NCBI RefSeq assembly: GCF_013315695.1
Contig: NZ_CP054353.1
Direction: 5' to 3' (one strand)
Source: Escherichia coli
GTDB taxonomy: Bacteria > Pseudomonadota > Gammaproteobacteria > Enterobacterales > Enterobacteriaceae
DNA: 64,000 nucleotides
The notes beneath the pieces are model-generated. The model was not told where the DNA came from and ran no database searches. It saw only the letters and a list, made by a program, of their open reading frames with translations. Position numbers and translations under genes: made by a program. Position 1 is the stretch's first letter; each line of letters opens with the position of its first letter. Positions 55,904-56,923 of this stretch are shown here, one piece after another.

Positions 55904-56320
55904 ATGATTGATGTCATTGGTAATAAATACGTTGTTGCTTTAATTTTTCCATTGTTGATGATTCTATGTGGGGCTTTTGTAAAAAAACTTGCCAGATCCT
56001 CTGGTTGGCAAAAGAGTGATTTTTACTTTGGGAATGAGTTGATATTATCGACAATTGGTGCATCATTGTTGAATTTATATGATTTGACTAAAACTGTTCA
56101 AACAGTAACCACGGTTAACCAAGTGGTTAATCAGTACATTGGAACTACTAGCTTTCTTGCCTTCTCTCTTTTTGTATTACTGGGGATCATGTCTTTTCAT
56201 CAAGATTGGGAAGGGCGAACAGGAAATCCAAAAGGTCAAATTTGGGTTTTATGTATTGGGTGTAATTTAGTCGGCATATTATTTTTTGCTTCCTTTGTTT
56301 TGTGGATTAAGGGTGTGTAA
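55904..56320 (+). CDS. hypothetical polytopic membrane protein (about 4 TM), first gene of TIR cassette
   Basis: 138-aa AT-rich ORF; stop TAA immediately followed by ATG of next gene. Confidence 0.5.
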   Translation: MIDVIGNKYVVALIFPLLMILCGAFVKKLARSSGWQKSDFYFGNELILSTIGASLLNLYDLTKTVQTVTTVNQVVNQYIGTTSFLAFSLFVLLGIMSFHQDWEGRTGNPKGQIWVLCIGCNLVGILFFASFVLWIKGV

Positions 56321-56923
56321 ATGAAAAAAAATACTCTTTATATTATTTCAATTGCATTGGCTGTTGTTGGGTTTCTTATGGCTCTTATTCCACGGCTCCC
56401 ATATTTATTTCAAGGAGTTAATGATGAGATTATCATCTCCGTTATTGGATTATCTTTTGCCTATTCTGGCCTGAGTTTGATTGTGTTAATGAAATTAAGG
56501 GAAAGAAGACTAAAGGCCGTTAAAAAAGGAAAGCAAATATTTCTAATGTATCCCGTACAAGAAAAAGATAAGGCCCGTCAAATAACTTGTAAGCTTAATG
56601 AGTTAGGTTTTGATGTATGGTTTGATGAAAATAACATATTGCCCGGGCAGATTATTGAAAAGCAAATTAATCAGGCTATAGACAATAGCGCTGCGGCTAT
56701 ATTGCTTCTGTCTAATGAAGATATGGAGTCATATATAAGAAAGGAGGTAGAGGGCTTTCTCCGTAAAGCTACGGTAAAAGATGAAAACTATGTTCCTATA
56801 ATTCCTGTGATAATTGGTGATGCTGAATTGCCTGCGATGCTCAAAAACATCAAGTCTGTAAACTATGAGGATGAAAAATTAATTGATAAGCTCAATTTGT
56901 CATTGAAGTCCATTCTTGGTTGA
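56321..56923 (+). CDS. membrane-anchored TIR-like (DUF1863/ThsB-like) domain protein
   Basis: 200-aa ORF: two N-terminal TM helices then IFLMYP...GFDVWFDENNILPGQ...AILLLSNEDMESY...IIPVIIGDAELP, matching TIR-like block pattern. Confidence 0.55.
   Translation: MKKNTLYIISIALAVVGFLMALIPRLPYLFQGVNDEIIISVIGLSFAYSGLSLIVLMKLRERRLKAVKKGKQIFLMYPVQEKDKARQITCKLNELGFDVWFDENNILPGQIIEKQINQAIDNSAAAILLLSNEDMESYIRKEVEGFLRKATVKDENYVPIIPVIIGDAELPAMLKNIKSVNYEDEKLIDKLNLSLKSILG

What the first reader, a model, noticed from the sequence alone, without database searches (positions are those of the whole stretch)
55904..56923. Two-gene membrane + membrane-anchored TIR-like cassette between cos and the portal gene of the P2-like prophage
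A 138-aa four-TM protein is immediately followed (TAA then ATG, no spacer) by a 200-aa protein with two TM helices and a C-terminal TIR-like (DUF1863/ThsB-like) domain. The pair is strikingly AT-rich against its GC-rich phage neighbours, has its own terminator, and sits where P2-like phages carry anti-phage cargo. I do not recognise a described TIR system with this partner: there is no SIR2/SLOG/Macro ThsA-like gene and no cyclase nearby.
Basis: partly seen in the sequence, partly recalled or inferred. Interest (0 to 1): 0.85.

Follow-up and report, generated by a model that had tools for sequence, protein, structure and literature searches.

The report
Membrane-anchored TIR pair in P2 prophage
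A P2-like prophage carries, next to its DNA-packaging site, a two-gene cassette made of a small four-helix membrane protein and a membrane-tethered TIR (NAD-cleaving type) enzyme; the pair is conserved across many bacterial groups, matches no named defence system that could be tested, and is most likely an untested anti-phage suicide module.

Summary
Two abutting genes (55904-56320, 138 aa; 56321-56923, 200 aa; TAA then ATG) lie between the cos site (about 55694-55718) and the portal gene. Their GC is 0.35 against about 0.51 in the flanks, and they have their own terminator.

- **Gene B** has two TM helices and a TIR_2 domain (E=4.8e-17). It is not DUF1863/ThsB-like. Glu142 is invariant and aligns with the catalytic Glu of AbTir and PdTIR.
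- **Gene A** is a confidently modelled four-helix membrane bundle (pLDDT 94.5). It has no Pfam, PADLOC, NCBIfam or PDB relative.
- **Gene A's family** is uncharacterised, with 264 clusters. In 9 of 11 intact remote loci, from beta-, gamma- and delta-proteobacteria, a 2TM-TIR gene follows immediately.
- **Selection and origin:** both genes are under purifying selection, and the pair is GC-poor relative to its flanks in most loci.
- **Named systems:** it is not the validated P2-hotspot "2TM+1TM+TIR" system of phage AC1, whose partner proteins are unrelated. It also has none of the known Thoeris effector domains.

Defence function is inferred, not shown. Best guess: a membrane-embedded abortive-infection module with TIR NAD+ cleavage as output. 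A Thoeris-like model, in which a TIR signal gates the 4TM protein, is a close rival. I rate it a new variant of a known kind, of moderate to high interest.

The parts
55694..55718 (.). cos core of the P2/186-like prophage (AGGCGTGGCGGGGATACGAGCGCGC). The cassette starts about 190 bp downstream of it.
   Evidence: Read directly. The block is invariant in window, L002, L005, L008 and L009. The same cos type appears in cloned P2/P4 hotspot sequences in Rousset 2022 Table S2.
55750..55903 (+). AT-rich leader or putative promoter region, with an AAGGA ribosome-binding site about 9 nt before the ATG.
   Evidence: GC is 0.32 in 55750-56049. No sigma-70 consensus site reached the scan threshold, so the promoter is inferred only.
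55904..56320 (+). Gene A: 138-aa four-helix integral membrane protein of an uncharacterised family. Model helices span residues 8-31, 43-64, 71-103 and 109-136. Family-conserved residues are P16, G23, K27, K28, R31, W35, D39, F40, G43, E45, H99, Q100, N121, G124, K136 and G137.
   Evidence: ORF. AlphaFold2 pLDDT 94.5 and pTM 0.84. No Pfam, PADLOC or NCBIfam hit; phrog_25392 (unknown function) matches full length. 264 clusters found by HMMER. Conservation profile. No PDB fold match at E<2. dN/dS 0.04-0.18.
56321..56923 (+). Gene B: 200-aa protein. It has TM1 (about residues 2-22), a short periplasmic loop, and TM2 that continues as one helix (35-71) through an invariant basic linker (KLRERRLKAVKKGKQ). 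That helix runs directly into a cytoplasmic TIR_2 domain (residues 72-200).
   Evidence: ORF. Pfam TIR_2 E=4.8e-17. Hydropathy and positive-inside pattern. Model secondary structure. Foldseek top hits are SPARTA TIR-APAZ, BtTir, AbTir and SARM1. phrog_24215 matches full length. dN/dS 0.07-0.29.
56744..56746 (+). Codon GAG for Glu142, the predicted catalytic glutamate of the TIR domain.
   Evidence: Aligns with the Glu of WTNYELDG (AbTir 7uwg) and WPQKELDG (PdTIR 3h16). Invariant in 9 and then 13 partner proteins at 18-29% identity, together with Y77, W100 and D102.
56929..56956 (.). Intrinsic terminator hairpin (9-bp stem, 3-nt loop) with a T-run. It reads as a terminator on both strands and lies between the cassette and the convergent portal gene.
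   Evidence: sequence.

Best explanation
The cassette is prophage accessory cargo encoding a two-protein abortive-infection module embedded in the inner membrane.

**Shown by the analyses**
- Protein B is tethered to the membrane by a two-helix hairpin. Its second helix runs without a break into a cytoplasmic TIR domain.
- That TIR domain keeps the catalytic glutamate (E142) and the W-x-D and BB-loop glycine motifs of NAD+-cleaving TIRs.
- Protein A is a compact four-helix membrane bundle. Its conserved residues cluster on the cytoplasmic face, and its periplasmic loop is the most variable part.
- The two genes abut or overlap (suggesting translational coupling), have diverged together, and are inherited as a unit across proteobacterial classes.

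**Inferred**
- A and B form a membrane complex in which A holds B's TIR domains apart or inactive.
- A phage-caused event at the envelope or membrane (for example genome entry, depolarisation, or a phage membrane protein) is sensed through A. This lets the tethered TIR domains self-associate in the plane of the membrane.
- The active site is completed, as in other TIR NADases that switch on by oligomerising. NAD+ is then cleaved in an E142-dependent way, stopping the infected cell before progeny phage are made and protecting the lysogen population.
For: **TIR identity and catalytic residue**
- TIR_2 E=4.8e-17.
- E142 aligns with the AbTir/PdTIR catalytic Glu and is invariant in 13 partners.

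**Nearest relatives are oligomerisation-activated NADases (mostly defence effectors)**
- PADLOC: SAVED_TIR 5e-11 and SPARTA Aga_TIR 3e-8, against ThsB 1.6e-4.
- NCBIfam: retron-TIR.
- PDB by sequence: TIR-STING, BtTir, PdTIR, AbTir.
- Foldseek: SPARTA, BtTir, C. elegans TIR-1, AbTir, SARM1.

**Architecture**
- B has no domain other than the TM hairpin and the TIR. Helix 35-71 joins TM2 directly to beta-A.
- A has no soluble domain. In the model its cytoplasmic loops are about 11 and 5 residues.

**Conserved linkage**
- All 5 close loci and 9 of 11 intact remote loci have A immediately followed by a 2TM-TIR gene.
- The two identity matrices correlate at r=0.85.
- Purifying selection acts on both genes.
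- TIR-less loci keep the 4TM gene overlapped by a two-TM mini-protein gene. This fits a membrane core carrying an optional output domain.

**Defence context**
- The position is in the P2 gpA-cos-gpQ hotspot, which carries validated defence systems including a TIR+TM system.
- The pair is GC-poor relative to its flanks in most loci.
- It persists in decayed prophages.
Against: - No experiment exists; NADase activity, A-B interaction and phage resistance are all untested.
- Outside enterobacterial prophages the pair lies between housekeeping genes: argG/argD, uup/glgX, gcvP. There is no defence-island support there.
- A is more conserved than B in all 66 pairwise comparisons (47% against 31% mean identity). 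This is the pattern expected if B were the fast-evolving sensor and A a conserved effector, which favours the Thoeris-like rival.
- A's conserved K27/K28/R31/W35/H99/Q100 cluster on the cytoplasmic face could be a nucleotide-binding pocket rather than a docking surface.
- The two-TM hairpin of B shows no family-wide sequence conservation, so a specific intramembrane A-B contact is not evident from sequence.
- The homology of the TIR-less mini-proteins to B's hairpin could not be established.
Confidence: 0.4

Rival explanations
1. Thoeris-like signalling at the membrane. The tethered TIR (protein B) is the infection sensor and makes an ADP-ribose-derived signal such as a cADPR isomer. Protein A is the effector: it binds the signal in a basic and aromatic pocket on its cytoplasmic face, formed within or between protomers, and oligomerises or opens to breach the membrane.
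For: - A is more conserved than B in 66 of 66 comparisons, as Thoeris effectors are relative to ThsB sensors.
- The family-conserved residues K27, K28, R31, W35, D39, F40, E45, H99 and Q100 lie at the cytoplasmic ends of the helices. N121 and G124 sit mid-TM4.
- Precedent: the type V Thoeris effector ThsF (DUF2270) is a 3-TM protein without a soluble domain. It is proposed to bind 3'cADPR in positively charged pockets between protomers (Yirmiya 2025 preprint).
- Rousset 2022 proposed the same logic for the AC1 TIR+TM system at this hotspot.
- AbTir-like TIRs also occur as putative Thoeris signal makers (Table S1 excerpts).
- In the TIR-less locus L012, two separate TIR-domain genes lie 1.9-3 kb downstream of the 4TM gene.
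Against: - A matches none of the known signal-binding or Thoeris effector families (SLOG, Macro, DUF2270, SLATT, DUF6650, ion channel) in Pfam or PADLOC. This holds for the query and for 101 family members.
- B's TIR scores better against effector-type TIRs than against ThsB models.
- B has no sensor region beyond the TM hairpin.
- Membrane tethering of a signal maker next to its receptor has no described precedent.
- The TIR-less locus L011 shows no signal source, although that contig is short.
Confidence: 0.3
2. The cassette is a toxin-antitoxin or addiction-type module, or a superinfection-exclusion device, that stabilises the prophage or blocks DNA entry at the membrane. The TIR would act as a constitutive toxin held in check by A, or as a non-catalytic scaffold, with no dedicated phage sensing.
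For: - The two small genes abut or overlap (a TA-like layout) and travel as a unit.
- The cassette survives in decayed prophages.
- Both proteins are in the membrane, where exclusion proteins act; SieB occurs in the same hotspot in Rousset Table S5.
- TA genes (ParE; PIN/MazE) neighbour the pair in L010 and L012.
Against: - The invariant catalytic Glu and the W-x-D and Gly motifs across 13 divergent partners argue for an enzymatic TIR.
- Chromosomal copies between housekeeping genes have nothing obvious to stabilise.
- There is no similarity to known Sie/Imm or TA families.
Confidence: 0.12
3. It is not a conflict system. It would be either a housekeeping or stress module that links membrane state to NAD metabolism, or a host-directed TIR virulence factor of the TcpC/BtpA type carried as lysogenic-conversion cargo.
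For: - Several non-phage loci are flanked only by metabolic genes.
- Brucella BtpA/TcpB TIR structures are among the fold matches.
Against: - The pair is GC-poor relative to its flanks in most loci and patchily distributed: 2 of 5426 complete E. coli genomes. That is accessory behaviour, not housekeeping.
- Topology puts the TIR in the cytoplasm behind two TM helices with a strongly basic inside linker, so it is not secreted.
- It occurs in free-living Geobacter, Nitrosomonas, Pseudoduganella and Competibacteraceae, which have no animal host.
Confidence: 0.08

Closest known systems
AC1 '2TM + 1TM + TIR' system of a P2-like phage (Rousset et al. 2022, PMC9122126). I recall that DefenseFinder lists it as Rst_2TM_1TM_TIR; that name is from memory and was not checked.
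   Same: - Same locus class: the P2 gpA-cos-gpQ hotspot.
- Same parts list in outline: a TIR protein plus small transmembrane proteins.
- Experimentally protective against lambda, LF82_P8 and P2.
- The TIR domains are related at fold level (hhalign probability 92%, 20% identity).
   Different: - AC1 has three genes; this cassette has two.
- AC1's TIR is a soluble 315-aa protein with an N-terminal TIR-like/DUF1863-type domain and a long C-terminal region. Here the TIR is C-terminal, of TIR_2 type, and itself membrane-anchored.
- AC1's TM proteins are unrelated to the 4TM protein (BLASTP shows nothing; hhalign probability below 1%).
Thoeris systems with membrane effectors: type II (ThsB + TM-Macro) and type V (ThsB + ThsF/DUF2270, 3 TM). 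Source: Yirmiya et al. 2025 preprint, doi 10.64898/2025.12.03.692087.
   Same: - A two-gene TIR + membrane-protein operon.
- A small all-helical membrane partner without an enzymatic domain, as in ThsF.
- The catalytic Glu is retained.
   Different: - The partner has no Macro, SLOG, DUF2270, SLATT or DUF6650 similarity.
- The TIR is membrane-tethered and matches ThsB models only weakly.
- Motifs from this TIR subfamily were absent from the stored part of their Table S1, except for one short generic motif that occurred in unrelated TIRs.
Oligomerisation-activated TIR NADase effectors: SPARTA TIR-APAZ, CBASS TIR-SAVED and TIR-STING, retron-TIR, SARM1, AbTir
   Same: - They are the best sequence and structure matches to the TIR domain.
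- The catalytic Glu and the BB-loop Gly are the same.
- The TIR is fused directly to the module that controls its assembly.
   Different: - Here the controlling module is a two-helix membrane hairpin plus a separate 4TM protein, rather than an Argonaute, SAVED, STING, RT or ARM domain.
- There is no cyclase, guide nucleic acid or retron nearby.
Animal Toll-like receptors (analogy only)
   Same: - A transmembrane helix leads directly into a cytoplasmic TIR domain.
- The Hydra TRR-2 and TLR1 TIR domains are among the fold matches.
   Different: - There is no ectodomain; the periplasmic loop is about 12 residues.
- The hairpin has two TM helices.
- The catalytic Glu suggests an enzyme rather than an adaptor.
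- There is no evidence of common descent beyond the TIR fold.

Membership tests
TIR domain superfamily (Pfam TIR_2, PF13676) | Significant match to the family profile over the whole domain | tested here: met
   TIR_2 i-Evalue 4.8e-17 over residues 73-185, model positions 1-115 of 122. TIR PF01582 scores 1.5e-6.
TIR domain superfamily (Pfam TIR_2, PF13676) | Flavodoxin-like alternating beta/alpha fold that superposes on solved TIR domains | tested here: met
   The model has strands at 72-76, 98-100, 125-130 and 160-164 alternating with helices. Foldseek gives 135 PDB hits at E<=0.001. The top hits are SPARTA TIR-APAZ (rmsd 2.2 A over 137 columns), BtTir, AbTir and SARM1.
Catalytic (NAD+-cleaving) TIRs | Conserved catalytic glutamate in the alpha-C region | tested here: met
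   E142 aligns with the Glu of AbTir WTNYELDG and PdTIR WPQKELDG. It is invariant in 13 partner proteins.
Catalytic (NAD+-cleaving) TIRs | Measured NAD+ hydrolase or cyclase activity | not testable with these tools
   This needs a biochemical assay.
Thoeris (ThsB TIR + signal-activated effector) | ThsB-type TIR (PF08937, or the PADLOC ThsB models) | tested here: inconclusive
   PF08937 E=0.86. The best PADLOC ThsB hit is 1.6e-4 and partial, weaker than SAVED_TIR and Aga_TIR. NCBIfam Thoeris type III ThcB4 scores 25.5 bits against a cutoff of 220.
Thoeris (ThsB TIR + signal-activated effector) | Adjacent effector from a known Thoeris effector family (SIR2-SLOG, TM-Macro, caspase-like, DUF2270, DUF6650, SLATT, CMP hydrolase, ion channel, HIT) | tested here: not met
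   The 138-aa protein has no Pfam, PADLOC or NCBIfam hit. None of 101 family members hits these families. The other hotspot genes have no such domains either.
Thoeris (ThsB TIR + signal-activated effector) | The TIR makes a diffusible ADPR-derived signal on infection, and that signal activates the partner | not testable with these tools
   This needs lysate LC-MS and effector activation assays.
AC1 2TM+1TM+TIR system (Rousset 2022) | Three-gene architecture: a 2TM protein, a 1TM protein and a soluble TIR protein | tested here: not met
   There are two genes here, and the TIR protein itself carries the two TM helices. The AC1 protein sequences come from Table S2.
AC1 2TM+1TM+TIR system (Rousset 2022) | Homology of the membrane partner proteins | tested here: not met
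   BLASTP shows no alignment or E>0.1. hhalign of the 101-sequence family profile against the AC1 proteins gives probabilities of 0.15% and 0.6%.
AC1 2TM+1TM+TIR system (Rousset 2022) | Homology of the TIR protein beyond the shared fold | tested here: not met
   BLASTP E=1.3. hhalign probability is 92% at 20% identity, over the TIR domain only. The authors' own HHpred puts AC1's TIR nearest PF10137/SEFIR/DUF1863.
P2-like phage defence hotspot cargo (Rousset 2022) | Variable genes located between replication gene A and portal gene Q, next to cos | tested here: met
   Window order is gpA 51250-53664, cos about 55694-55718, the cassette, then portal 56956-57987. Klebsiella P2-like prophages show the same placement.
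PADLOC candidate PDC-S66 | Full-length match to the candidate's model | tested here: inconclusive
   E=5e-10, but only residues 67-160 match model positions 145-240 of 282, i.e. the TIR domain alone. The N-terminal half is unmatched.
CBASS / Pycsar TIR effectors | A SAVED, STING or cNMP-binding sensor domain on the TIR protein and a cyclase in the operon | tested here: not met
   The 200-aa protein has only a TM hairpin and a TIR. There is no cyclase among the neighbours.
E. coli TIR-I to TIR-IX systems (Wang et al. 2024, PMC11350192) | Sequence identity with one of the 64 clusters or 12 validated systems; one validated system contains a TM domain | not testable with these tools
   The text gives no accessions and no supplementary files are held. 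This check remains open.

The most novel reading that the evidence does not exclude
The pair defines a new, widespread family of envelope-sensing immune modules, with about 260 sequence clusters across several proteobacterial classes and other phyla. Its core is a minimal bacterial "Toll-like receptor": a TIR enzyme joined by a continuous helix to a membrane hairpin. A dedicated four-helix partner of a fold not seen in solved structures switches it on within the membrane. The trigger would be a membrane-level event of infection, such as genome injection or loss of membrane potential, rather than a cytoplasmic phage protein.
Probability: 0.2. Interest if true: 0.8.

Novelty: new variant of a known kind. 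Interest (0 to 1): 0.6.

Why it matters
TIR-based immunity is shared by bacteria, plants and animals, and the known bacterial versions mostly use soluble TIR proteins. This cassette offers three things.
- A TIR domain hard-wired to the membrane.
- An unannotated, highly conserved four-helix partner family with no Pfam, PADLOC, NCBIfam or structural relative.
- A natural genetic handle: a 1.2-kb self-contained unit in an E. coli prophage hotspot, easy to clone and test.

If it defends, it adds a defence family that PADLOC 2.0 cannot call. It would also give a compact system for asking how infection is sensed at the membrane and how TIR activation is controlled in two dimensions. If the 4TM protein turns out to be a signal-gated effector, it extends the growing list of Thoeris effector types.

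Tried and rejected
**Searches that found nothing**
- The INPHARED phage collection gave no match for the cassette DNA (megablast) or for either protein (tblastn).
- Literature searches for "2TM-1TM-TIR", "TM-TIR", WP_000742490 and TIR-VII/VIII found nothing beyond the two source papers.
- The accessions WP_000742490 and WP_000567607 are not in the stored part of Rousset's Table S5.
- Motifs from this TIR subfamily were not found in the stored part of Yirmiya's Table S1; one short generic motif occurred, in unrelated TIRs. Both tables are truncated in storage, so absence is weak evidence.

- I replaced it with a degenerate DNA pattern (DF[YF]...HQDW[ED]) scanned over genome contigs. It returned 57 loci, of which only 6 were true family members by hmmsearch; the rest were chance hits.

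**Leads that proved uninformative**
- Foldseek of the 4TM model found only generic helical bundles in the PDB (E>2). In AFDB50 it found only uncharacterised family members, one of them auto-labelled DUF202. The DUF202 Pfam signal in the family is marginal (best E=0.015), so I did not adopt it.
- The 316-aa hit P0135 looked like a possible fusion of the 4TM region to another effector. It has no Pfam domain and lacks TM4, so I treat it as a decayed or fused copy.
- L037 is likewise a truncated remnant.

**Not attempted**
- I did not model an A-B complex. The structure tool returns no contacts or PAE, so a fused-chain model could not have been interpreted.
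Full report

Yes. The six-frame ORF list gives 55904-56320 (+, 138 aa) and 56321-56923 (+, 200 aa). The sequence shows GTG TAA ATG with no spacer.

GC content falls to 0.32-0.36 across the cassette, against 0.50-0.62 in the flanking phage genes. The pair is 0.347 and the +/-4 kb flanks 0.506.

A 9-bp hairpin followed by a T-run at 56929-56949 scores as an intrinsic terminator on both strands.

The neighbours identify a P2/186-like prophage:
- a gpA-type replication endonuclease at 51250-53664;
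- a portal gene at 56956-57987 (-);
- a large terminase at 57984-59750 (-);
- a GPO scaffold gene at 59893-60726.

RefSeq annotation of a 100%-identical stretch in E. coli O157:H16 98-3133 agrees, and so do the Pfam calls in Klebsiella loci.

The cos core AGGCGTGGCGGGGATACGAGCGCGC lies at about 55694-55718, roughly 190 bp upstream of gene A. It is invariant in five related loci.

**2. Are both ORFs genes?**

Yes. The close family is tiny. In 5.8 billion proteins there are five clusters for the TIR protein and two for the membrane protein.

Every locus recovered keeps a 138-aa ORF abutting a 200-aa ORF with the TAAATG junction. These loci are E. coli, Enterobacter sp. BNK-8, Klebsiella, and two metagenomic contigs at 53-59% identity.

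dN/dS is 0.04-0.18 for gene A and 0.07-0.29 for gene B, with synonymous sites near saturation.

The cassette is rare in E. coli: 2 of 5426 complete genomes.

**3. What is protein B?**

- **Profile matches.** Pfam gives TIR_2 (PF13676) at 4.8e-17 over residues 73-185, and TIR (PF01582) at 1.5e-6. ThsB_TIR/DUF1863 (PF08937) scores only 0.86, so the "DUF1863/ThsB-like" label is not supported.
- **Topology.** Hydropathy finds two TM segments (about 5-23 and 37-55). The N-terminus is basic and there are eight K/R within the 25 residues after TM2, which places the TIR in the cytoplasm.
- **Model.** With a 13-sequence alignment the AlphaFold2 model (pLDDT 78) has TM1 at 2-22. One uninterrupted helix spans 35-71, made of TM2 plus the linker KLRERRLKAVKKGKQ, which is largely invariant in the close family. 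That helix runs straight into beta-A at 72-76.
- **Fold matches.** Foldseek returns 135 PDB hits at E<=0.001. They are led by SPARTA TIR-APAZ, BtTir, C. elegans TIR-1, AbTir, Hydra TRR-2, PdTIR and SARM1.
- **Catalytic residue.** A profile search of PDB sequences aligns the family's "KKEVEGF" with AbTir "NYELDGL" and PdTIR "QKELDGL". This makes Glu142 (codon 56744-56746) the catalytic-Glu equivalent. Glu142 is invariant in 13 partner proteins that share only 18-29% identity with the query, along with Y77, W100 and D102. G109 of the BB loop is nearly invariant.
- **Library relatives.** In PADLOC and NCBIfam the best TIR matches are effector-type TIRs: CBASS SAVED_TIR 5e-11, candidate PDC-S66 5e-10 (TIR part only), SPARTA Aga_TIR 3e-8, and retron-TIR 4.6e-8. 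ThsB models score 1.6e-4 or worse.

**4. What is protein A?**

Nothing matches it in Pfam, PADLOC or NCBIfam. Its only library hit is the PHROG family phrog_25392, of unknown function.

An exhaustive HMMER search of 1.84 billion representatives with the five-sequence profile found 264 clusters (129 at E<=1e-10). Nearly all are 130-150 aa and match full length.

With a 101-sequence alignment the AlphaFold2 model is very confident (pLDDT 94.5, pTM 0.84). It is a bundle of four long helices at 8-31, 43-64, 71-103 and 109-136.

Foldseek finds no solved structure at E<2. In AFDB50 it finds only uncharacterised members of the same family. None of the 101 members has a credible Pfam domain.

The positive-inside rule puts loop 27-42 and the end of helix 3 in the cytoplasm. 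Family-wide conservation concentrates there: K27, K28, R31, W35, D39, F40, G43, E45, H99 and Q100. N121 and G124 in the middle of helix 4 are also conserved. The periplasmic loop (65-78) is the most variable segment.

**5. Is the pairing general?**

I examined the genomic context of remote family members. Some came from exact-protein look-ups. Others came from a degenerate DNA pattern scan of 100,044 species genomes followed by hmmsearch.

Among intact copies:
- **Nine loci** have the 4TM gene immediately followed, overlapping or within 3 nt, by a 2TM-TIR gene of about 200-235 aa. They are L010, L014 (Pseudoduganella), L015, L016, L017 (Deltaproteobacteria MAG), L022 (Competibacteraceae), L044 (Geobacter MAG), L049 (TIR frameshifted) and L059 (Nitrosomonas).
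- **Two loci** (L011, L012/13) have instead a 69-79-aa two-TM mini-protein with no TIR.

L037 and P0135 are truncated or fused remnants.

Across 12 paired loci the 4TM protein is more conserved than its TIR partner in all 66 comparisons (mean identity 47% against 31%). The two identity matrices correlate at r=0.85, or 0.48 among remote pairs. This indicates long-term co-inheritance.

The pair is 6-17 GC points below its flanks in 10 of 13 loci. That suggests horizontal acquisition.

Outside the enterobacterial prophages, however, the neighbours are housekeeping genes: argG/argD, uup/glgX and the glycine-cleavage genes. Only occasional TA genes appear. There is no defence-island signal there.

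**6. Comparison with what is known**

*Rousset et al. 2022 (PMC9122126).* This paper defines the gpA-cos-gpQ region of P2-like phages as a defence hotspot. It validates a "2TM + 1TM + TIR" three-gene system from the P2-like phage AC1 against lambda, LF82_P8 and P2.
- Using the protein sequences from their Table S2, AC1's two membrane proteins show no similarity to protein A. BLASTP finds nothing and hhalign probability is below 1%.
- AC1's TIR shares only the fold: BLASTP E=1.3, and hhalign 92% at 20% identity.
- AC1's TIR is also soluble and of the TIR-like/DUF1863 type.
- This cassette is therefore analogous to the AC1 system but not a member of it.

*Yirmiya et al. 2025 (preprint).* This expands Thoeris to types V-XI and lists 29 putative effector classes. 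These include small membrane proteins such as ThsF/DUF2270, which is proposed to bind 3'cADPR between protomers.
- Protein A matches none of those families.
- Motifs of this TIR subfamily were absent from the stored, truncated part of their Table S1, apart from one short generic motif that occurred in unrelated TIRs.

*Wang et al. 2024 (PMC11350192).* This surveyed 64 E. coli TIR clusters and validated 12 systems, one of which has a TM domain. No sequences are available to me, so overlap cannot be excluded.

**7. Mechanism**

*Shown.* B is a membrane-tethered, catalytically competent-looking TIR. A is a conserved four-helix membrane partner with a conserved cytoplasmic face. The genes abut or overlap and have diverged together. 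The cassette has an accessory, mobile character and sits in a validated defence hotspot.

*Inferred, preferred (confidence about 0.4).* A and B form a membrane complex. A phage-induced membrane event relieves A's control and lets the tethered TIRs associate. NAD+ is then cleaved in an E142-dependent way, aborting the infection. Support for this reading:
- the TIR's closest relatives are oligomerisation-activated effector NADases;
- there is a rigid TM2-to-TIR helix;
- neither protein has any other sensor or ligand-binding domain;
- TIR-less 4TM + mini-2TM pairs exist.

*Close rival (about 0.3).* B senses infection and makes an ADPR-derived signal, and A is the membrane-breaching effector that binds it. 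Support for this reading:
- A is the slower-evolving partner;
- A's conserved basic and aromatic residues sit on the cytoplasmic face;
- the ThsF precedent exists.

*Less likely.* An addiction or exclusion module (about 0.12), or a non-conflict or virulence role (about 0.08). The latter is disfavoured by the cytoplasmic, non-secreted topology and by occurrence in free-living bacteria.

**8. Verdict**

The feature is real and correctly located. Its TIR assignment is right at superfamily level but wrong at subfamily level.

It is a new variant of a known kind: TIR-based anti-phage modules with membrane partners. The novel elements are a partner family that is unannotated and structurally unmatched, and a TIR that is itself membrane-anchored.

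The defence function and either mechanism are untested. One open bookkeeping check remains (the Wang 2024 supplementary data and current DefenseFinder) that could reclassify it as already known.

Interest 0.6.

Noticed in passing
window 54520-54735 and 54735-55577 (+): A 71-aa ORF (phrog_9843) overlaps by ATGA a 280-aa ORF (phrog_3630), which has three N-terminal TM-like segments and a soluble C-terminal part. They lie on the gpA side of cos, with GC about 0.40. The same two accessions (WP_000094764 and WP_000212611) recur in Rousset 2022 Table S5 beside different hotspot cargo (PIN_12, DUF262/DUF1524, SieB). Neither has a Pfam, PADLOC or NCBIfam match. This may be a second accessory module.
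   Followed up: partly
L001 (E. coli O157:H16 98-3133) 7257-8078; L002 (Enterobacter sp. BNK-8) 7584-8603: The cassette is intact, and 100% identical in L001, while the prophage around it has decayed. In L001 the portal gene is a truncated pseudogene joined to tail-fibre genes. In L002 cos and the cassette remain but the portal and terminase genes are gone. The cassette outlives its phage.
   Followed up: no
L011 720-953; L012 4399-4638 (and L013): In two remote loci the 4TM gene is overlapped by a gene for a 69-79-aa protein made of just two TM helices, with no TIR domain. L012 also has a PIN/MazE pair and two separate TIR-domain genes 1.9-3 kb downstream. Whether the mini-protein is homologous to the TIR protein's hairpin could not be established.
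   Followed up: partly
L037 8538-9044 (-); P0135 / L074 1130-2080: These are decayed or fused copies of the 4TM gene. In L037 the ORF ends just after the HQDWE motif, with no fourth helix and no TIR gene. P0135 is a 316-aa ORF, seen in at least two assemblies, that joins helices 1-3, a two-TM hairpin and about 100 further residues with no Pfam match.
   Followed up: partly
L017, L022, L015, L014 (flanks of the pair): Outside enterobacterial prophages the pair is a small insert, 6-17 GC points below its flanks, wedged between housekeeping genes: argG/argD, uup/glgX, gcvP, and a cupin/AraC/EamA group. No integrase or defence genes lie within about 4 kb. How it moves is unexplained.
   Followed up: partly
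window 53817-54005 and about 54016-54249 (+): A 62-aa hypothetical ORF and a DinI-like gene follow gpA. The DinI-like gene matches NCBIfam PRK10597 at 6.6e-10 and phrog_189 at 1.5e-30. They are the common fixed genes of this P2 hotspot in Rousset's tables.
   Followed up: no
window 56929-56949: The terminator hairpin after the TIR gene scores as a terminator on both strands. It lies only 7 nt from the stop codon of the convergent portal gene, so one hairpin probably ends both transcripts.
   Followed up: no
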